A DNA stretch of 64,000 nucleotides from Cenarchaeum sp. (GTDB lineage Archaea; Thermoproteota; Nitrososphaeria; Nitrososphaerales; Nitrosopumilaceae), in contig OZ242221.1 of the NCBI GenBank assembly GCA_965206845.1, positions 320,001-384,000 on the forward strand. Reading direction: 5' to 3'. The notes under the pieces were generated by a model, which was not told where the DNA came from, ran no database searches, and saw only the letters and a program-made list of their open reading frames with translations. The position numbers were made by a program, and so were the translations under genes. Of this stretch, positions 15,072 through 59,209 are shown piece by piece; the first letter of the stretch is position 1; each line of letters begins with the position of its first letter.

Positions 15072-15146
15072 TGAGTTTGAATACACATTTGACATGAACT
15101 GCTAATGACAAAATGTAGGTTTCAGTTTGTGATTGGGTCTTTACCT

Positions 15147-16493
15147 CAGTAATCCCAGATGTGCTCACGGAGCCACGGGATCTGGCGGTGGCTCGGGCTG
15201 GATCGTAATATTCTGATAGATTGCTATTAGCGTGGCAATTTTCATATACAGCTGCGTCACCGGAAGGACTCCGCCACACAGCTTCAGAAAGCTTGCCAGC
15301 TGCGCGTTTACCAGCGCCCATGCGTTAAACAGCGTCAGCGAGTACAGAAAGCAGAAAAGCCTGGCAGGCCTATTGCTGCCGAACGACTTTGCCCTGGCGT
15401 TCTCTACCAGTCTGTAGCATGTCTCGATGGTCCACCTTTTGGAATATTCTTCCACATCCACCCACGGGGCATTGGTGGCAAACGCAATGTATCGATCTTC
15501 CGGCGCATCTGCCTTCTTCGCCTTCTTGTCCCCGTTCTTCGTCCTCTCACTTTCTTTCCTTACTCTCTTCTTCTTTGTTATGATCATGTGGTACTGAACC
15601 GTTACCTTGTCAGAATTCGTCATGTCGGATTTTGAGATGGGGCCGAGCGTCTTGGCCACGAACTTGCGCAGCGAGTCTTTCACCCTACTGGTTCTGGTGC
15701 ACGGCATCAGGTACTCAAGGCTAAGGCGCTCAATCTCGGATATCGAGTTCACTGAAAAGAAACCCCTGTCAACCAGGATCAGTCCCAGCCTGGATCCGAC
15801 GGCGGAGACGTTTTCTAGGCACAAATTGATGATTCTACGCAGGGATTCGTGCACGGATGAAGACTTGTCCATGTATAGGGCCGCAAGGATAAGCCGCGAT
15901 TTGGAGTTGACGCACTGCGCCGTGATGTACGCCTCGAATCTGTTGGTGCCGCTCTTGCGCTCGCCACCCCTCAGGTCAGAGCCAAGTTTCTTGCTGTGGC
16001 ACGGTATCAGGTGCATGTCGATGGCCACATCAAGCACATCAGGCAACCTGCCAAGCAAGCAAATCTCATCCAGCTGTGCCCTTACCGCCTGGTTAAAAGT
16101 CTCAAGCGCCTTGCCCTCGTCCGTCTTGGACAGGATATCGCGAAACCACTCGCCGCTTGGAGAATGGCGCGAATATCTTGGATTCTCGATGGGCTGCGCC
16201 GTGATTTCTCTCATGACGAGACTGCATCCGCCGACCGAAGTGTCAAGCATCGCGGCATGCAGCATGCCGGCGTTAAAGTCGCTTGCTCCATATGTCGCGT
16301 TGTACCTTTTGGAGACCTCGGCGGACGGCACGATGCTTTCCCTCAGCATCTTCTCAACAGATTCATATATTTTGCCGTTGTTCATCATATCACGTCTCAG
16401 GCGATCTTTTTGGTAGTACACAAGGATCGTCTGGGCGCGCCCTCATTGATCTGTTTGCATTAGGTGCCAGATCTGGCACATCTGGGATTACTG
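15147..16493 (-). mobile_element. ISH3-like element (intact)
   Basis: 18-bp perfect TIR CAGTAATCCCAGATGTGC; 5-bp TSD TACCT at 15142-15146 and 16494-16498. Confidence 0.9.
15165..16421 (-). CDS. ISH3/IS4-like DDE transposase
   Basis: VAIDMH, LVDRGFFS, YSKRWTIETCYR. Confidence 0.88.
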   Translation of the reverse strand: MYYQKDRLRRDMMNNGKIYESVEKMLRESIVPSAEVSKRYNATYGASDFNAGMLHAAMLDTSVGGCSLVMREITAQPIENPRYSRHSPSGEWFRDILSKTDEGKALETFNQAVRAQLDEICLLGRLPDVLDVAIDMHLIPCHSKKLGSDLRGGERKSGTNRFEAYITAQCVNSKSRLILAALYMDKSSSVHESLRRIINLCLENVSAVGSRLGLILVDRGFFSVNSISEIERLSLEYLMPCTRTSRVKDSLRKFVAKTLGPISKSDMTNSDKVTVQYHMIITKKKRVRKESERTKNGDKKAKKADAPEDRYIAFATNAPWVDVEEYSKRWTIETCYRLVENARAKSFGSNRPARLFCFLYSLTLFNAWALVNAQLASFLKLCGGVLPVTQLYMKIATLIAIYQNITIQPEPPPDPVAP

Positions 16494-16771
16494 TACCTAA
16501 TCACAAAGCGCCCACCAATCGATATAATCGATAAAGTATTCACACGAGTATGAGAATTAAAGATTACTGAAGCATACTATTTTTTAGTAATGAATTGTTA
16601 ATTATGCCTGCGGAAGCTGATTTGAGGTTAAGACCAAGATGACCTCGATGGCGATTCAACACTCCACTTTGCCACTCTCAGTTTCCGCAAATTAATCTAG
16701 TTAACATTTGATATGAACTGTTAATAAAAAAATATAGATCTGTTATATTTCTAAAATAGCTATTAGAAAAT

Positions 16772-54779: not shown

Positions 54780-55358
54780 ATGATATCAATGGAAAAGGCG
54801 GCAGCCGGATGGTCTATAGCCATCGTAGCAATTTTTGTCGCACTTGCAGCAGCTGGTGACTCGGTTCAGAGCACAAGCGCGCCGATAGCAGTTCCCTCCG
54901 CCCCACCCGCAGTTGTTGAGCAACCAGTAGAGGCAGAGACGATGATAGAAGAAGGGCTCATGATAGAAGAAGCGATGGCCGAAGAGGAGGAGGAGGCCAT
55001 GGCAGAAGAGGAAGCGATGGCCGAAGAAGAGGAGGCAACAACAGAGCCCACAGAACCGCAGACCGTAACAGTCGAGATACCCATAGACACGGCACTCCCA
55101 GGATGTGAGATCACCGACGCATGCTACATACCCGGCTCCGTAACCATCAATGTTGGCGACACGGTGGCATGGGACAACGCAGACATCGCTGCACACACGG
55201 TAACAAGCGGCTCACCTCAAACCGGACCGAGCGGAGAATTCGACAGCAGCCTGATCATAGGCGGAGCGATATTTGAGGTGACCTTTGACGAGGCTGGAAG
55301 TTACGAGTACTTTTGCCTGGTCCATCCCTGGATGTTAGGCACTGTCGATGTAAGCTAA
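54780..55358 (+). CDS. membrane-anchored plastocyanin-like blue copper protein with acidic linker
   Basis: TM, EEEAMA repeats, HTVTSG, YFCLVHPWM. Confidence 0.9.
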   Translation: MISMEKAAAGWSIAIVAIFVALAAAGDSVQSTSAPIAVPSAPPAVVEQPVEAETMIEEGLMIEEAMAEEEEEAMAEEEAMAEEEEATTEPTEPQTVTVEIPIDTALPGCEITDACYIPGSVTINVGDTVAWDNADIAAHTVTSGSPQTGPSGEFDSSLIIGGAIFEVTFDEAGSYEYFCLVHPWMLGTVDVS

Positions 55359-57488
55359 GGGAATTATATACATGAGTACACAGTACACTTGCCTTTTTCT
55401 GGCGCTCTTGCAACCCTCCCGGCGCTTGGCTCTCGCGCCCTGTCTGGGGAACGCGCGGGAGCAATCCCGCGCTGGTGTCTCGCGTCTTTGGACGACCATC
55501 CCGGCCGCCCTGCCGCCACGGCTTCCGCCCTGGAGGCAATGTTATGCGCGGCATTGATGTCCGCGTTGACGTCATTGTCACATCTGTCATTGGTACAGCG
55601 GAACTCGCCCCGCGACACCCTGGATTCCTTGTCACTGTGGCCGCACCTGTGGCATGTTATGCTGGTGCCCTTGGGGTCCACCATAATTACAGTCACGCCC
55701 GCGTTCTCACAGGCGCCCCTGATCTGGCGCTGGAACGTCCCGGGCCTGGAGTAGGCCATCTCGCGGTTGAGCCCGGTCTTGGCCGTGCTTCCCTTTCCCT
55801 TGGCTCTTGCAGTCATGTTCACGAGGTTGAGGTCCTCCATGGCCACCGTTCCCGCGCCGTCCGCTATCCTCTTGGAGGCGTGGCGCTCCCAGTTGGTTTG
55901 CCTGTTGGCGAGCTTCTCGTGCTTCTTCCTGATCTTTCTCTGGAGCTCCTTGTAGCTTCTTGACTTGGGCTTCCTTGCCTCGTTCCTGTTGCGGCCGCTG
56001 GTGTTGTTGCTGCTGCCGCCGTTGGCGCCGTTCCCGCCGTCCGAGCCATCGCTCACGCCACTGGCGCCTTCCTTGGCATCCTGTTTGGTGCGCCTGTTGC
56101 CCCTCCCGCCGCGCTTCCTAGAGAGCTCCGAGTACATCTTCGATATGTCGTCGTTCTTCGCCCTCCTGCAGTCCTTTGGGAGGTCATAGAATGTGGGGTG
56201 GCCGGTGCCAAGGTCGACGGTGGCGGCGCCGTGGACTATGCCCATGTCGACGCCCCTGGTTACCGTGGACTCCGACGGCCCTGGGGCCTTGGTTTCAACC
56301 TGGATGTGGAGCCGGTACGTCCTGTTGTGGTCCTCGGTGCGTTTCGTGGTCCTCTTGGTCGTCTCGACGAGCTGGAAGGAGAGCATTTCGAGGCCATCCA
56401 CGTCGCCGTGCACCCTCACTATGCCGATACCGGGAAGATGCAGCATGCCGTTGCCCTTGTACACGGGATTCCTGAACACGGAGAGGGACCGCTGCTCCCC
56501 CTTCCTCTTAAACAGGGAATCCCTGTGGGTCCATTCGTTCCTCTTGTTGCTCCACTTGTTCGACGGCAGGTTGGGCGCGGTGCCGATGTCCGGTATCCCC
56601 TCCTTTTCCCGTTCCCGCCTGGCCAGGCGTTTCCACAGGGACTTGTTGGAGCGCTTTTTGCCGTTGGATGCCATGAATTTTTTTACGGCGTCAAGGCCCA
56701 GCAGGAGCCCCGCCCTCTGCACCCTGCTGTAGCAGGCCTCCTTGCGTCCAGCGGCCCGCGCTTTCTTGTCATGGACCAGCCACCCGTTTGCGTCCCTCCA
56801 TTTGGTGAGCATCTTGTTGAGGTCGAACTTGGTTGTCCTCGGGTCTTTCAGCTTTTCCCGCACCGCCATGTTGAACGCCCACCTCTGCTGGTCCATGTGG
56901 CGCGATATGAGATCCGACGTCTCGGCAGACTGGTCAAAGTCCATTTTTATGGTGCGTATCATGATGCCCTCCATTGGGCGCTTTGACCACTTTTTTGGCG
57001 CCGGCTCGGTTGCCGTTGCTGTTGCCGCTGCCGTTGGCGCAGTTGTGGTTGCCACGATGGGTTTCATTACCGCATGCAAATGCCAGCCGAGTATAAAAGG
57101 AGATATGGCGGTGCCGCGCCTGCCAGTGAGGTTCCGGCCGCCACGGTGTGGCGCCGGCACCGCGCGGGAACGGCGCCCCGGACGGAAGGCCCGAAGATGA
57201 CGGGTTTTGGCCGCTTTTGCATGCGGCTGCCGCCTTGCGCCAATGCCGGATCGGTTTGGGACGGCTCCCCATGCGGATCCGGCATTTGCCTGTATGAAAG
57301 GCGCAACCAAGCCGCCGCCTTCCGGGGCTCCTGCCTGCCTCGGGATGCCGGCCGGCATCGGAAAACCGGATGCAATTGCCGGCCCGTCATGAATCGGGAA
57401 GGCCGGTCTGTCGGACCGCATGATCGGCCGGGACGGGAAGCCCCGGCCATGCGGCAGCGCCGACAGTTTACTTAACTATGTAATTCCC
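55359..57488 (-). mobile_element. TIR-bounded non-autonomous element carrying tnpB
   Basis: TIR GGGAATTATATACATGAGTACACAGT / GGGAATTACATAGTTAAGTAAACTGT (20/26); TAA direct repeats at 55356-55358 and 57489-57491 (or CTAAG). Confidence 0.72.
55364..57067 (-). CDS. tnpB: TnpB-family RNA-guided endonuclease, about 567 aa
   Basis: RuvC-I GVDMG, RuvC-II AMEDL, zinc finger TSITCHRCG...FRCTNDRC, RuvC-III NADINAAHNI; TTTTATA upstream of ATG 57067. Confidence 0.88.
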   Translation of the reverse strand: MKPIVATTTAPTAAATATATEPAPKKWSKRPMEGIMIRTIKMDFDQSAETSDLISRHMDQQRWAFNMAVREKLKDPRTTKFDLNKMLTKWRDANGWLVHDKKARAAGRKEACYSRVQRAGLLLGLDAVKKFMASNGKKRSNKSLWKRLARREREKEGIPDIGTAPNLPSNKWSNKRNEWTHRDSLFKRKGEQRSLSVFRNPVYKGNGMLHLPGIGIVRVHGDVDGLEMLSFQLVETTKRTTKRTEDHNRTYRLHIQVETKAPGPSESTVTRGVDMGIVHGAATVDLGTGHPTFYDLPKDCRRAKNDDISKMYSELSRKRGGRGNRRTKQDAKEGASGVSDGSDGGNGANGGSSNNTSGRNRNEARKPKSRSYKELQRKIRKKHEKLANRQTNWERHASKRIADGAGTVAMEDLNLVNMTARAKGKGSTAKTGLNREMAYSRPGTFQRQIRGACENAGVTVIMVDPKGTSITCHRCGHSDKESRVSRGEFRCTNDRCDNDVNADINAAHNIASRAEAVAAGRPGWSSKDARHQRGIAPARSPDRAREPSAGRVARAPEKGKCTVYSCI

Positions 57489-57628
57489 TAAGTTAACCCA
57501 AAAACAAGGCCTTTTTGTCTCCCGATACCCGCACGAGTGTGGGATTACCCATAGCATCAAGATGAGGAACCTGCGCGGGAGCGGCCACACACGGGCAAGT
57601 TGCGCTTGCAGGAGGGCAGATACTGGCC

Positions 57629-59209
57629 TCACAGCTTGCGCAGCTTTCTGTTGTAGGCAACGCCAAACCGGTGTGCCTCATCCCTGGCATACTGCAGTAT
57701 CTTCAGTCCCGGGTTGTCCCGGGGCATCCGGATGGGCCCGCCCCTGCCGGGCATAAACACCTCCTCGTCCCTCTTTGCCAGGGACGCGCAGGGAACCTCT
57801 ACCCCAATGTCTTTCAGGGATTTTAGCGCGGCGCCGAGCTGTCCCGTGCCGCCATCCACCAGGACAAGATCCGGCATTGCAGACTCTTCCTTCAGCAGCC
57901 TCGCGTACCTCCGTGTGACTATCTCAGAGATCATCGCAAAGTCGTCCTGGCCGCGCACCGTGCCTATCTTGAACCTCCGGTACCCTGACCTGTCCGGGAC
58001 GCCGTCATCAAACCTCGACATCGCACCCACCGCATAGTCGGTGCCGTGGTTTGAGACATCAAAGCACTCGATTATCCTTGGGGGGTGCCCAAGGCGCAGC
58101 GCCTCCTCCAGCTCGGTCAGGCCCGGCTGCGCCCCCTGGTGCTGGATCAGCGCTATATTCTTCATGATCAGGGAGATCATCTGCCGCTTCTTTCCACCTT
58201 TGGGCATTATGATGCTGACATCAGAGCCGGCATTCCTTGAGAGCAGCCCCTCCAGGGTCTCCCGGTTCTCGGGCAGCTCGCTTACCAGGATGTTCCTGGG
58301 CGCCTTGTGGGTGGTGTAGTACTGGAACAGAAAGTTTCCAAACGTGTTGTCTGCCACCATGTCAAAGGAGAAGCGATCCGTGTCGCGAATCACGCCGTGC
58401 TTCTGCCTCAGCGTCATAATCAGCGCGGTGTGATCCTCGACCGTTATCCCGAAATAGTCCTCGTCCGGGGCCCCGGTAACGTACTCCATCTTCTGCTCCG
58501 TCTGGAGGCTGCCCAGCCTCTGCAGCGTGTCCCTGATCTCCATTGCCCGCTCATACTGCTGCGATGCGGCGGCCTCATCCATCTCCCGGCGCATCCGCTC
58601 AACAAAGTCCCGCATGCCCTGCTTTCCCTTCAGGACCGACTCGAGGTTCCGGACATGCTGTCCGTACCTCTCCTGGGCCTCGCCAAACTGGCACGGCGCC
58701 TCGCAGTTTCCCAGGTGGTACTCCAGGCAGGCCTTCTTGGGAAGCGTCTTGCAGATCCTGATCTTAAACGCCTTGCGCAGGGCGCCTATCGTCAGCAGCT
58801 TCGAGCTGCCCTGCGTGAACGGGCCGTACACCCTTCCCTCGCCAAGAAACTTTCCCGACCTGGTCCTTCGCGTGACCAAGAGCCGGGGATACTTCTCCCC
58901 TGTAACCCGCAAGTATGTGTAGCGCTGCTGATCCTTCAGCTCTATGTTGTACATCGGCCGGTACCGCTTTATCATATTGGATTCTAGCATGAACGCCTCG
59001 GCCTCGCTGTCTGTCAGGACAAACTCGATGTCGACAATCCTCTGGACGAGCTTTTGCATCTTGTAGTTCTGGTTCTTGGCAAAGTATGACCGGACCCTGT
59101 TCCTCAGGTTCTTTGCCTTGCCGATGTATATCGTGGCGCCCGCCGCATCCTTCATTATGTAGATGCCGGTGCGGGACGGAATGGAGAGGGTTGACGGATC
59201 CAGGGTCAT
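57629..59209 (-). CDS. uvrC: excinuclease ABC subunit C
   Basis: GIY-YIGKAKNLRNRV, ECFDVSN, DDFAMI, LVDGG.GQL, RDEAHRF; no HhH tail. Confidence 0.95.
   Translation of the reverse strand: MTLDPSTLSIPSRTGIYIMKDAAGATIYIGKAKNLRNRVRSYFAKNQNYKMQKLVQRIVDIEFVLTDSEAEAFMLESNMIKRYRPMYNIELKDQQRYTYLRVTGEKYPRLLVTRRTRSGKFLGEGRVYGPFTQGSSKLLTIGALRKAFKIRICKTLPKKACLEYHLGNCEAPCQFGEAQERYGQHVRNLESVLKGKQGMRDFVERMRREMDEAAASQQYERAMEIRDTLQRLGSLQTEQKMEYVTGAPDEDYFGITVEDHTALIMTLRQKHGVIRDTDRFSFDMVADNTFGNFLFQYYTTHKAPRNILVSELPENRETLEGLLSRNAGSDVSIIMPKGGKKRQMISLIMKNIALIQHQGAQPGLTELEEALRLGHPPRIIECFDVSNHGTDYAVGAMSRFDDGVPDRSGYRRFKIGTVRGQDDFAMISEIVTRRYARLLKEESAMPDLVLVDGGTGQLGAALKSLKDIGVEVPCASLAKRDEEVFMPGRGGPIRMPRDNPGLKILQYARDEAHRFGVAYNRKLRKL

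What the first reader, a model, noticed from the sequence alone, without database searches (positions are those of the whole stretch)
55356..57491. TnpB nuclease carried by a TIR/TSD-type transposase-less element
Seen: tnpB with all three RuvC acidic residues lies inside 26-bp imperfect TIRs (GGGAATTA...), flanked by TAA (equivalently CTAAG) duplications. It is inserted exactly at the cupredoxin stop codon, with a T-run terminator-like sequence just past the far end. The last 170 nt of the ORF are hairpin-rich (GCGCGGGA/TCCCGCGC, GGCGC/GCGCC), as expected for an omegaRNA whose guide would be the flank TTAGCTTACATCGACAGTGCC. Known: prokaryotic TnpBs normally ride IS200/IS605 or IS607 elements, which lack TIRs and TSDs; association with TIR DDE transposons is typical of eukaryotic Fanzors. 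Inference: an archaeal lineage in which TnpB has been captured by a cut-and-paste (IS5/Harbinger-like) element and is mobilised in trans.
Basis: partly seen in the sequence, partly recalled or inferred. Interest (0 to 1): 0.8.

Follow-up and report, generated by a model that had tools for sequence, protein, structure and literature searches.

The report
TnpB riding an IS1595-type transposon
A guide-RNA nuclease gene (tnpB) sits in a small mobile element that has no transposase of its own, carries the ends of an IS1595-type cut-and-paste transposon, duplicates 8 bases on insertion, and is probably moved by a transposase encoded elsewhere in this sponge-associated archaeon.

Summary
Window 55359-57488 is a 2130-bp element with imperfect TIRs (GGGAATTA...). 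It carries one gene, tnpB, and a structured 3' RNA that runs to the element end.

- **Duplication:** it is 8 bp (TAAGCTAA/TAAGTTAA), not TAA or CTAAG. Ten of 15 copies in this genome have perfect 8-bp duplications. Contigs from a related strain join 55355 to 57494, skipping 2138 = 2130 + 8 bases. This gives the empty site GTAAGCTAACCC, not the predicted AGCTAAGTTAAC.
- **Partner:** it is an IS1595-family (Merlin-related) DDE transposase, not IS5/Harbinger. Elements encoding that transposase in related genomes have the same 13-nt termini and 8-bp duplications. This genome holds one intact and one decayed transposase gene, and no Y1 or serine TnpA.
- **New observation:** the base just outside the duplication on the tnpB-upstream side is G in 15 of 15 copies here and 13 of 19 elsewhere. 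Elements that carry the transposase do not show this (4 of 16 ends). That fits a TAM.

TnpB in DDE/TIR transposons of prokaryotes has been in print since 2023, so this is a new variant (IS1595 type, archaeal), not a new kind.

The parts
54780..55358 (+). Cupredoxin gene. Its last 8 bases, including the TAA stop, are the left copy of the target-site duplication.
   Evidence: ORF; Pfam Copper-bind 1.9e-08.
55351..55358 (.). Target-site duplication, copy next to the tnpB-3' end (RE): TAAGCTAA.
   Evidence: The empty-site contigs carry one copy with this spelling.
55338..55358 (-). Flank that would be transcribed as the guide if the 3' RNA reads out of the element. On the minus strand it reads TTAGCTTA (the TSD) followed by CATCGACAGTGCC.
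   Evidence: Inference from the position of the structured RNA and the known TnpB omegaRNA layout. No RNA 3' end was measured.
55359..55384 (.). Terminal inverted repeat at the tnpB-3' end (RE), GGGAATTATATAC... Its inner part forms the last hairpin of the RNA, and it contains the tnpB stop codon.
   Evidence: helix 7.
55359..55510 (-). Candidate omegaRNA scaffold: six conserved helices ending 11 nt before the element terminus. It overlaps the last ~50 codons of tnpB.
   Evidence: Alignment A1 of 17 copies: 95.8% of cells paired against 36-50% when partners are slid; 13 of 42 pairs changed on both sides; 0 of 500 shuffles reach the observed score; two invariant G-U pairs. No Rfam match.
55364..57067 (-). 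tnpB coding sequence (567 aa plus stop), counted from the start conserved among copies (MKPI...). The open frame runs upstream to 57421, but that part is not conserved.
57068..57462 (-). GC-rich region upstream of tnpB, variable in length among copies, with local hairpins (for example 57239-57289). Presumably promoter and leader; function not established.
   Evidence: Element lengths are 1829-2644 bp, and the differences lie mainly here.
57463..57488 (.). Terminal inverted repeat at the tnpB-5' end (LE). Its reverse complement reads GGGAATTACATAGTTAAGTAAACTGT.
57489..57496 (.). Target-site duplication, copy next to LE: TAAGTTAA (one mismatch to the other copy).
57497..57497 (-). Base just outside the LE-side duplication: G on the tnpB-sense strand. 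It is a candidate TAM position.
   Evidence: G in 15 of 15 copies in this genome and 13 of 19 in other genomes. The RE-side equivalent is G in 4 of 27. Transposase-bearing elements have G at 4 of 16 ends.
57506..57516 (+). Palindrome AAGGCCTT plus a T5 run. Probably the cupredoxin gene's own terminator, now separated from the gene by the insertion.
   Evidence: Read from the sequence. The empty-site contigs run from the cupredoxin straight into this region. Its function as a terminator is inferred.

Best explanation
Window 55359-57488 is a non-autonomous member of an IS1595-family (Merlin-related DDE) transposon lineage. Its only cargo is tnpB and its 3' guide-RNA scaffold.

Shown:
- The element has TIRs and makes 8-bp target duplications.
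- It occurs as about 15 diverged copies in this archaeal genome. Related TnpB-only elements occur in other genomes of the same family.
- The same 13-nt termini bound elements that encode an IS1595-type transposase.
- An allele without this insertion exists in a related strain.

Inferred:
- An IS1595-type transposase supplied in trans cuts at the shared termini and inserts the element with an 8-bp stagger. One intact transposase gene is present in this genome.
- The structured RNA is transcribed through the RE terminus into the flank. Its guide is therefore the 8-bp duplication plus the next bases.
- TnpB loaded with this RNA would recognise the unoccupied site: a G, then the 8 bp, then the right flank. 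It would not recognise the occupied site, where the guide match is preceded by ...TTCCC at RE and broken by the TIR at LE.
- Cutting empty alleles would favour copying the element back by recombination (homing or retention), as proposed for IS200/IS605 TnpB.
- The conserved G beside the LE-side duplication is read as the TAM.
For: Ends and duplications:
- Fifteen paired copies in the own genome share the termini. TSDs match 8/8 in 10 of 15, 7/8 in 2, 6/8 in 1, and do not match in 2.
- Of the 19 TnpB-only elements taken from G226, G143, G175 and G349, TSDs match 8/8 in 15, 7/8 in 3 and 6/8 in 1.

Empty site:
- One contig in each of runs X17 and X18 joins 55355 to 57494, skipping 2138 = 2130 + 8 bases.

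Partner:
- The Pfam domain DDE_Tnp_IS1595 is found in G175 (5.4e-33) and in the own genome at C1:27527-28453 (8e-34; intact 309 aa).
- A decayed second copy begins 57 nt after a GGGAATTATATAC terminus.
- Eight transposase-bearing elements in G226 and G176 have TIRs beginning GGGAATTATA and 8/8 TSDs. Six of them share the full 13-nt terminus GGGAATTATATAC; L117 and L130 diverge after GGGAATTATA.
- In one sample of 231 genomes, all 11 genomes with 4 or more matches to the terminus carry this transposase. Only 5 of the other 220 do.
- A paper passage states that IS1595 members are usually flanked by 8-bp TSDs (PMC8101967).

No alternative mover:
- No Y1_Tnp or Resolvase domain in the 99.99%-complete genome.

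TnpB looks functional:
- The stop-to-stop frame is at least 548 aa in 12 of 15 copies, and the motifs are conserved.

TAM-like base:
- G at LE -1 in 15 of 15 own copies (binomial p = 8e-8 for the 13) and in 13 of 19 elsewhere.
- Five of the 6 exceptions fall in two separate TnpB clades, where 0 of 5 have G (quick tree).
- Transposase-bearing elements have G at only 4 of 16 ends.
Against: - No transposition or cleavage was tested.
- The intact transposase gene of this genome has only a degenerate left terminus (19 of 24 positions match the c375 RE terminus) and no detectable right terminus. It may be immobile, and its activity on these ends is unproven.
- Its zinc-ribbon Pfam hit is below the curated cut-off (21.6 against 25.4 bits).
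- Copies in this genome are only 70-84% identical to one another, so there is no sign of a recent burst here.
- No element with both the transposase and tnpB inside one TIR pair was found among those examined.
- The empty-site contigs come from RNA libraries of a single study. They show an unoccupied allele, not excision.
- The TAM reading rests on flank statistics only. Six of 19 elements outside this genome lack the G. The clade split was seen after the fact on an unfinished quick tree.
- The Fisher test used groups chosen after looking at the data.
- A one-base TAM would be unusually short compared with the 4-5-nt TAMs quoted for IS200/IS605 (PMC13565253, passage).
Confidence: 0.8

Rival explanations
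1. One reading: an IS5/Harbinger-like cut-and-paste element that duplicates TAA (TWA) or CTAAG.
For: TAA does flank both ends in the window. IS5-like and Harbinger-like (DDE_Tnp_4) transposases do exist in the genome.
Against: - The flanking TAA is part of an 8-bp duplication. The other copies duplicate unrelated 8-mers such as GTTGATCA and CGGTTACG.
- The observed empty site differs from the predicted one.
- The IS4/IS5/Harbinger-like elements here have other termini: GGCTGTGTCC, GGGGTTGGTGCG, AAACTCTGTTTCC, GTTCTGAGAAC and CAGTAATCCCAG.
Confidence: 0.02
2. An ordinary IS200/IS605 (IS1341-type) or IS607 element moved by a Y1 or serine TnpA, with the inverted ends and flanking repeats being coincidence.
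For: TnpB is most often found in those families (PMC10691335 section 9). Solo tnpB copies that are diverse within one genome are typical of archaeal IS1341-type elements (PMC3119063, passages).
Against: - No Y1_Tnp or Resolvase domain in the complete genome.
- Inverted termini are present in all 15 own pairs and in the 19 pairs taken from other genomes. The flanking 8-mers match at 6 of 8 or better in 13 of the 15 own pairs and in all 19 others.
- Those families are described as lacking both TIRs and TSDs (PMC13565253, passage).
Confidence: 0.02
3. The structure is as in the best explanation, but the conserved G beside the LE-side duplication is not a TAM. It reflects an orientation-dependent target preference of the transposase, or a need of tnpB expression, or chance shared history. 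TnpB then serves another role, such as regulation or defence, or is a selfish passenger.
For: - Only one position is conserved.
- Six of 19 elements outside this genome lack it.
- The two complete G226 transposase elements L117 and L130 also have G on the transposase-upstream side.
Against: - Across 8 transposase-bearing elements, only 4 of 16 ends have G.
- The bias is strictly on the tnpB-upstream side (26 of 27 against 4 of 27).
- It changes with TnpB clade, as expected if the nuclease rather than the transposase sets it.
- The insertions are at independent sites.
Confidence: 0.3
4. The copies in this genome are fossils: the elements no longer move and TnpB no longer acts here.
For: - No two copies are more than 84% identical.
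- The only intact transposase gene lacks a recognisable right end.
- Two of 15 pairs have lost matching duplications, and 3 of 15 have shortened frames.
Against: - Twelve of 15 frames are open for at least 548 aa with motifs kept.
- Ten of 15 duplications are still perfect although the copies differ by 16-30%, which suggests insertion after divergence of the lineages.
- This insertion is polymorphic between strains about 97-98% alike in the flanks.
- RNA-library contigs cover parts of tnpB and the 3' RNA region (weak).
Confidence: 0.15

Closest known systems
DDE-transposase-associated TnpB branches (DDE-1 to DDE-6) of Altae-Tran et al. 2023, PNAS (PMC10691335). A 2026 review names the transposases as ISL2, IS630 and IS1031 (PMC13565253).
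   Same: A prokaryotic TnpB inside a transposon with symmetrical inverted ends. The tnpB 3' end is close to the transposon end (here 5 bp). Solo TnpBs share ends with transposase-bearing elements and are presumably moved in trans (section 9).
   Different: The partner here is an IS1595-family transposase, which the passages I read do not name. The supplementary tables that list the branches could not be opened, so membership in one of the six branches is open. No element examined here carries the transposase and tnpB together.
IS1595 family of insertion sequences (ISPna2, ISH4, IS1016, IS1595, ISSod11, ISNwi1 and ISNha5 groups) and its eukaryotic relative Merlin.
   Same: 8-bp target duplications. 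TIRs start with GG. The transposase has an N-terminal zinc ribbon and a DDE_Tnp_IS1595 domain (PMC8101967 passage; Pfam). Some related elements carry passenger genes, here a DNA methylase-HNH fusion.
   Different: The window's element has no transposase. Its cargo is an RNA-guided nuclease whose RNA scaffold and stop codon are built into the terminal repeat.
IS200/IS605 IS1341-type (tnpB-only) elements and IS607.
   Same: A TnpB with an omegaRNA overlapping the 3' end of the gene and reading into the flank. Many diverged solo copies occur in one archaeal genome (PMC3119063 passages).
   Different: Those families have no TIRs and make no TSDs. They insert beside a 4-5-nt motif and depend on a Y1 or serine TnpA (PMC13565253 passage). 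Here TIRs and 8-bp TSDs are present, and no TnpA exists in the genome.
Fanzor nucleases in eukaryotic DDE transposons.
   Same: A TnpB-type nuclease carried by TIR/TSD cut-and-paste transposons, with a flanking target base or bases apparently read as the TAM (PMC13565253 passage).
   Different: The host is an archaeon: the SSU rRNA scores 1455 bits on the archaeal model against 1086 on the bacterial one. 'Merlin' and 'IS1595' do not occur in the two Fanzor papers searched. No phylogeny against Fanzors was made.

Membership tests
TnpB (OMEGA RNA-guided nuclease) | OrfB_IS605 / Cas12f-like TNB (zinc-ribbon) domains | tested here: met
   PF07282 at 6.7e-16 and PF01385 at 2.6e-08, both above their cut-offs. 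PDB sequence hits to TnpB and Cas12f chains at about 1e-10.
TnpB (OMEGA RNA-guided nuclease) | RuvC D/E/D catalytic motifs intact | tested here: met
   GVDMG, MEDL and NADxNAAxN, plus CxxC...CxxxxC, are conserved across the copies. The last two motifs align with solved Cas12f and TnpB chains. The link from motif to catalysis is recalled, not tested.
TnpB (OMEGA RNA-guided nuclease) | Structured RNA overlapping the gene's 3' end and reaching the element end | tested here: met
   Forty-two pairs in 7 helices, 95.8% of cells paired, 13 pairs with compensatory change, 0 of 500 shuffles as high. That it is transcribed was not shown.
TnpB (OMEGA RNA-guided nuclease) | RNA-guided, TAM-dependent DNA cleavage | not testable with these tools
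   Only a flank statistic is available: G at LE -1 in 15 of 15 own copies and 13 of 19 other elements.
IS1595 family (as a non-autonomous derivative) | 8-bp target-site duplication | tested here: met
   8/8 in 10 of 15 own copies and in 15 of 19 copies in other genomes. The empty site skips element + 8 bases. The family trait comes from a PMC8101967 passage.
IS1595 family (as a non-autonomous derivative) | Termini shared with elements encoding a DDE_Tnp_IS1595 transposase | tested here: met
   GGGAATTATATAC forms both ends of L173-L177 (transposase elements) and of the TnpB-only elements. A decayed transposase copy in the own genome has it too.
IS1595 family (as a non-autonomous derivative) | Encodes its own single transposase gene | tested here: not met
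   tnpB is the only conserved coding region in the element. It is therefore filed as a non-autonomous derivative, not as an IS.
IS1595 family (as a non-autonomous derivative) | Mobilised by the IS1595-type transposase | not testable with these tools
   Supported only by co-occurrence: 11 of 11 genomes rich in the terminus have the transposase, against 5 of 220 others.
IS200/IS605 (IS1341 group) and IS607 | No TIRs, no TSDs; Y1 or serine TnpA available | tested here: not met
   TIRs and TSDs are present. PF01797 and PF00239 are absent from the complete genome.
IS5 / PIF-Harbinger | 2-4-bp (TWA / CTAG-type) duplication and an IS5- or Harbinger-type transposase with matching ends | tested here: not met
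   Duplications are 8 bp. The IS4/IS5/Harbinger-like elements of the genome have different termini. The TSD sizes of those families are recalled.
DDE-associated TnpB branches of Altae-Tran 2023 | Inverted terminal repeats around tnpB, with the tnpB 3' end within 250 bp of the end | tested here: met
   compared with section 9 of PMC10691335.
DDE-associated TnpB branches of Altae-Tran 2023 | Falls phylogenetically in one of the branches DDE-1 to DDE-6 | not testable with these tools

The most novel reading that the evidence does not exclude
A TnpB lineage has co-evolved with IS1595/Merlin-type cut-and-paste transposons. Its guide-RNA scaffold and stop codon are fused to the terminal repeat. Its guide begins with the 8-bp target duplication. 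It uses a minimal, clade-specific TAM: a single G just 5' of the duplication on the upstream side in the main clades, and A or T in two others. On this reading, only insertions that land next to the right base can be re-copied into empty alleles. The flank bias would therefore be the footprint of RNA-guided homing acting on a DDE transposon in archaea, a prokaryotic counterpart of the Fanzor-transposon partnership.
Probability: 0.4. Interest if true: 0.75.

Novelty: new variant of a known kind. Interest (0 to 1): 0.6.

Why it matters
It is still an open question what an RNA-guided nuclease does for a cut-and-paste DDE transposon. A 2026 review argues that such pairings are rare in prokaryotes and their benefit unclear (PMC13565253, passage).

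This lineage offers a clean natural data set for that question:
- dozens of independent insertions with exact 8-bp duplications;
- a documented empty allele;
- transposase-bearing and TnpB-only elements with identical termini in the same genomes;
- a flank base that tracks TnpB clade rather than the transposase.

The homing hypothesis, and the rule for where the guide starts relative to the duplication, become directly testable. The set also adds compact archaeal TnpBs (about 450-570 aa) with a possibly very relaxed TAM. Finally, it links TnpB to the prokaryotic relatives of eukaryotic Merlin elements.

Tried and rejected
- **Autonomous partner among the multi-copy IS families of the own genome.** I clustered all ORFs of at least 150 aa, ran Pfam on 14 representatives and mapped the ends. 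IS4/IS5-like, Harbinger-like, IS630, IS110 and rve families are present, but none has the GGGAATTATATAC terminus.
- **Other GGGAATTA-containing repeats.** A 30-nt motif occurs at five places, and another lies inside an IS5-like element. Neither is related to this element.
- **The search for related loci in genome contigs with the TnpB.** Ninety-nine pattern matches, none confirmed.
- **Empty site in the same-genus genome G001.** It is only 68-71% identical and not syntenic at the cupredoxin, so it was unusable.
- **TnpB searches in relatives.** With E <= 1e-3 the protein matched 5 of 41 genomes, G000 included. With E <= 1e-30 it matched 2 of 401 genomes of the class. The close family was therefore not found in most genomes searched with this query.
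- **Rfam.** No match at E <= 1.
- **An element carrying both the transposase and tnpB.** None among L173-L179 and L143, nor among the wider set.
- **Right terminus of the intact transposase gene in the own genome.** Not found within 3 kb at up to 4 mismatches.
- **RNA-library contigs.**
  - Short contigs cover 55359-55475 and 55359-55506 plus 15-18 bases of a different flank (X17 record 10, 132 nt; X19 record 24, 166 nt; X19's RNA label is a guess). This looks like scaffold plus guide.
  - Contigs cannot show RNA ends, strand or level, so this is only a hint.
  - Parts without cover (57122-57424 in the RNA runs) support no claim.
- **Careful maximum-likelihood tree.** It did not finish, so only the quick tree was used.
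- **Literature searches for this pairing.**
  - 'IS1595' + 'TnpB' returned 9 papers (listing only); none is about this by title or abstract.
  - 'Fanzor' + 'Merlin' returned 4 papers, all gene- or epigenome-editing reviews by title.
  - 'TnpB' + 'Thaumarchaeota' + 'sponge' returned 0.
  - 'TnpB' / 'DDE transposase' / 'omegaRNA' / 'TIRs' from 2023 returned 3, none on IS1595.
  - Within these searches I therefore found the IS1595 pairing nowhere in print.
  - The supplements of PMC10691335 could not be checked.


Full report
**What is in the window.**
- Bases 55359-57488 form a 2130-bp element. On the minus strand it holds one long open frame, at most 55364-57421.
- The frame matches the Pfam families Cas12f1-like_TNB (6.7e-16) and OrfB_IS605 (2.6e-08), so it is a TnpB.
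- An alignment of the copies in the genome shows that conservation begins at MKPI... The start is therefore window 57067, giving 567 aa. The upstream part of the frame is not conserved.
- The motifs GVDMG, MEDL and NADxNAAxN and a CxxC...CxxxxC zinc finger are kept across the copies. Solved Cas12f and TnpB chains align over the last two motifs and the finger at about 1e-10.
- The ends are inverted: GGGAATTATATACATGAGTACACAGT at 55359, and the reverse complement of GGGAATTACATAGTTAAGTAAACTGT at 57488. By my count, 20 of 26 positions match. The repeat finder reports a 35-nt pair at 74%.
- The element starts directly after the TAA stop of a cupredoxin ORF (54780-55358; Copper-bind 1.9e-08).
- A palindrome and T5 run at 57506-57516 lies just past the far end.
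- The host is an archaeon. Its SSU rRNA scores 1455 bits on the archaeal Rfam model and 1086 on the bacterial one.
- The stretch is held in runs labelled sponge metagenome.

**Copies, boundaries and duplication.**
- The window lies in a complete 1.65-Mb, 57% G+C, single-contig genome.
- A DNA search of that genome with the element gave 26 matches. Fifteen are longer than about 780 bases, at 70-84% identity. Every match that covers the tnpB-3' end starts at query base 53-60, that is within 6 bases of window 55359.
- A motif scan paired the termini into 15 elements of 1829-2644 bp.
- The flanks of each pair repeat an 8-mer that differs from pair to pair. Examples are GTTGATCA, TATTTAAA, TTGAATCA, AATCACAA and CGGTTACG.
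- The match is 8/8 in 10 of 15 pairs and 7/8 in 2 (including the window's TAAGCTAA/TAAGTTAA). It is 6/8 in 1 and absent in 2 (c1075, c1049), which may have recombined.
- Twelve of the 15 copies keep a stop-to-stop frame of at least 548 aa. One (c870) is interrupted by another insertion sequence.

**The empty site.**
- Contigs of four public runs were laid on 54900-57900.
- In two RNA-library runs of one study (X17, X18; sponge metagenome), one contig each (591 and 571 nt) joins 55355 to 57494. There are 194-255 bases on the shorter side and 6-14 other letters per flank.
- The skipped part is 2138 bases, which is the 2130-bp element plus 8.
- The joined sequence is GATGTAAGCTAACCCAAAAAC.
- This shows an unoccupied allele in a related strain. 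It does not show excision.
- The same-genus genome G001 could not serve, because it is only 68-71% identical and not syntenic here.

**Which transposase.**
- None of the multi-copy insertion sequences of this genome has these termini. That covers the IS4/IS5-like, Harbinger-like, IS630, IS110 and rve families.
- The lead came from a relative, G175. A TnpB 41% identical over its C-terminal 200 residues sits in a 1350-bp element with the same termini and a 7/8 8-bp duplication.
- The terminus pattern occurs 22 times in G175 and 13 times in G018, against 0 for the reversed control.
- Near two such termini in G175 lies an ORF with the Pfam domain DDE_Tnp_IS1595 (5.4e-33) and a weak zinc-ribbon hit.
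- tblastn of that protein on the own genome found two copies.
  - An intact 309-aa gene lies at C1:27527-28453 (64% identity, 1e-132; Pfam 8e-34). A degenerate terminus, GGGGCTTATATCGCTGAGTACACA, precedes it and matches the window's RE terminus at 19 of 24 positions. No right terminus was found.
  - A decayed copy starts 57 nt after a GGGAATTATATAC terminus. It carries in-frame stops and an IS4-like insertion.
- The transposase was found in 16 of 231 genomes of the family, G000 included, and in 10 of 10 genomes of genus g18. This tally includes the unpublished G425.
- In g18 genomes the same 13-nt terminus bounds two kinds of element.
  - The first kind encodes the IS1595-type transposase, alone or with a DNA-methylase/HNH passenger. 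These are L173-L178 (1823-3869 bp) and L117/L130 (2144 bp). All eight have 8/8 duplications.
  - The second kind is TnpB-only, 1420-1574 bp. I analysed eleven such copies in G226 and four in G143.
- In one sample of 231 genomes, all 11 genomes with four or more terminus matches are among the 16 with the transposase. Only 5 of the other 220 have it. One search's tally includes the unpublished G247. Nine of the 11 belong to one genus, so these are not independent.
- A paper passage states that IS1595-family members are usually flanked by 8-bp TSDs and have a zinc-finger plus DDE_Tnp_IS1595 transposase. It also states that eukaryotic Merlin elements are their relatives (PMC8101967).
- The complete genome has no Y1_Tnp and no Resolvase domain.
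- I conclude that the element is a non-autonomous IS1595-type element moved in trans. Transposition itself was not tested.

**The RNA.**
- The last 200 bases of 16 copies from this genome and one from G175 were aligned on the tnpB-sense strand.
- RNAalifold predicts 42 pairs in 7 helices.
- On this structure, 95.8% of cells are standard pairs, against 36-50% when partners are slid by 1-3 columns. Thirteen pairs change on both sides, and 0 of 500 shuffles reach the observed covariation score.
- Two G-U pairs are invariant, which points to the sense-strand RNA.
- In window coordinates the main structured part is 55359-55510. The last hairpin (55370-55392) lies inside the terminal repeat, and 11 unpaired bases run to the terminus.
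- The tnpB stop codon lies in the repeat (…TGTATATAA|TTCCC) in most copies.
- Rfam has no match.
- Short contigs of RNA-labelled libraries cover exactly 55359-55475 and 55359-55506 plus 15-18 bases of another flank (the RNA label of X19 is a guess). Contigs cannot show RNA ends, so I count this only as a hint.

**A flank base that follows TnpB.**
- Read on the tnpB-sense strand, the base just 5' of the LE-side duplication is G in 15 of 15 copies of this genome. For the 13 copies used the binomial p is 8e-8, against a G frequency of 0.286.
- The equivalent base on the RE side is G in 3 of those 13.
- As a test set I took 19 TnpB-only elements from G226, G143, G175 and G349. G is present in 13 of 19.
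- Five of the six exceptions fall into two separate TnpB clades on a quick tree. In those clades the base is A or T in 5 of 5. The sixth exception (L190) has a near-identical sister with G (the careful search did not finish).
- Pooling the clades with G gives 26 of 27 on the LE side against 4 of 27 on the RE side (Fisher p = 7e-10). Those groups were chosen after looking, so the a-priori figures above are the ones to trust.
- The eight transposase-bearing elements have G at only 4 of 16 ends.
- The bias is therefore orientation-specific, tied to elements that carry tnpB, and changes with TnpB clade. That is what a TAM would produce.
  - In the empty site the guide match (duplication plus right flank) is preceded by this G.
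  - In the occupied site the guide match is preceded by ...TTCCC at RE and interrupted by the repeat at LE.
- This part is inference. A transposase or expression effect is not excluded.

**How it compares with what is known.**
- Altae-Tran et al. 2023 report DDE-transposase-associated TnpB branches (DDE-1 to DDE-6). All have inverted terminal repeats, a tnpB 3' end usually within 250 bp of the transposon end, and solo TnpBs with the same ends that are probably moved in trans (PMC10691335, passages and section 9).
- A 2026 review names those transposases as ISL2, IS630 and IS1031. It calls such pairings rare in prokaryotes (PMC13565253, passages).
- IS1595 is not named in what I could read, and the supplementary lists were closed.
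- My literature searches found nothing on an IS1595-TnpB pairing or on TnpB in sponge-associated archaea.
- The two Fanzor papers I searched do not contain 'Merlin' or 'IS1595'.
- The TnpB clade is small: 31 clusters at 50% identity reach E <= 1e-30 among 1.84 billion representatives.
- It is nevertheless well represented in public data. A word-indexed search found 142 proteins at E <= 1e-5, the best at 99% identity in a 2.47-Mb contig.
- Among GTDB species representatives, a protein search at E <= 1e-30 found it in only 2 of 401 genomes of the class.

**Verdict.**
It is wrong in family: IS1595, not IS5/Harbinger.
- The finding is a new variant of a kind known since 2023.
- Its value lies in three things: the clean natural series of insertions, the shared termini with transposase-bearing elements, and the TAM-like flank base. 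Together these make the role of TnpB in a cut-and-paste transposon testable.

Noticed in passing
L173:292-1692 (G226), also L176 and, broken, L174/L175/L178: IS1595-type transposons in genus g18 carry a passenger ORF that fuses an N6_N4 DNA methylase (9e-41) to an HNH endonuclease domain (1e-12). It lies inside the same GGGAATTATATAC termini and the elements have 8-bp duplications.
   Followed up: partly
own genome C1:1188043-1189924 and C1:1049606-1051551: Two TnpB elements have RE-type sequence at both ends, about 79 nt of the 3' RNA region repeated in inverted form at the LE. The first has a perfect 8-bp duplication and the second has none.
   Followed up: no
own genome C1:1075256-1077418 and C1:1049606-1051551: In these two copies the flanking 8-mers do not match (TTTGGTTT/TAGCAAAA and TAAAAAAA/TAAATAGG). 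This would fit rearrangement by recombination between copies.
   Followed up: no
own genome C1:870565-872715: The tnpB of this copy is interrupted by a member of the 1209-bp IS4/IS5-like family, which has termini GGGGTTGGTGCGTAATTCT and 8-9-bp duplications.
   Followed up: partly
window 15145-16494 (genome C1:335145-336494): An IS4-like insertion sequence (DDE_Tnp_1, 417 aa) with termini CAGTAATCCCAGATGTGC lies in the window. A sister copy has split the decayed IS1595-type transposase gene at C1:1465286-1466773.
   Followed up: partly
own genome, whole: The 1.65-Mb genome is very rich in repeats: megablast found 158 merged repeat intervals of at least 200 bp. These include about 20 copies of a 1233-bp IS5-like element (termini GGCTGTGTCC, 9-bp duplications), and IS630, IS110, rve-type and Harbinger-like families.
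   Followed up: partly
own genome C1:430376, 878897, 950645, 1107985, 1439784: A 26-30-nt motif starting GGGAATTAATCTTATGTGCGCCGATC recurs at five places with unrelated sequence on the outer side. It shares the first 8 bases with the element's terminus but nothing else. Its nature is unknown.
   Followed up: partly
L103:1100-1180 (G175): A tRNA-3'-end-like stretch (…GGTTCGAATCCCACTCCTGTCGCTA) lies just upstream of the intact IS1595-type transposase gene of G175. About 1 kb of unrelated sequence separates the gene from the nearest terminus.
   Followed up: no
G175 C1:562158-562543 and 891809-891973; G143 C1:1710543-1710860; own genome C1:938659-939364 and 1178387-1178755: Short pairs of the same termini, 165-700 bp apart, look like miniature derivatives (MITE-like) of the family. 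The two in the own genome lack matching duplications.
   Followed up: no
window 54930-55030: The acidic Glu/Ala/Met-rich repeat region of the cupredoxin varies in length between strains. Contigs show 3- to 21-base insertions and deletions here (table 4).
   Followed up: no
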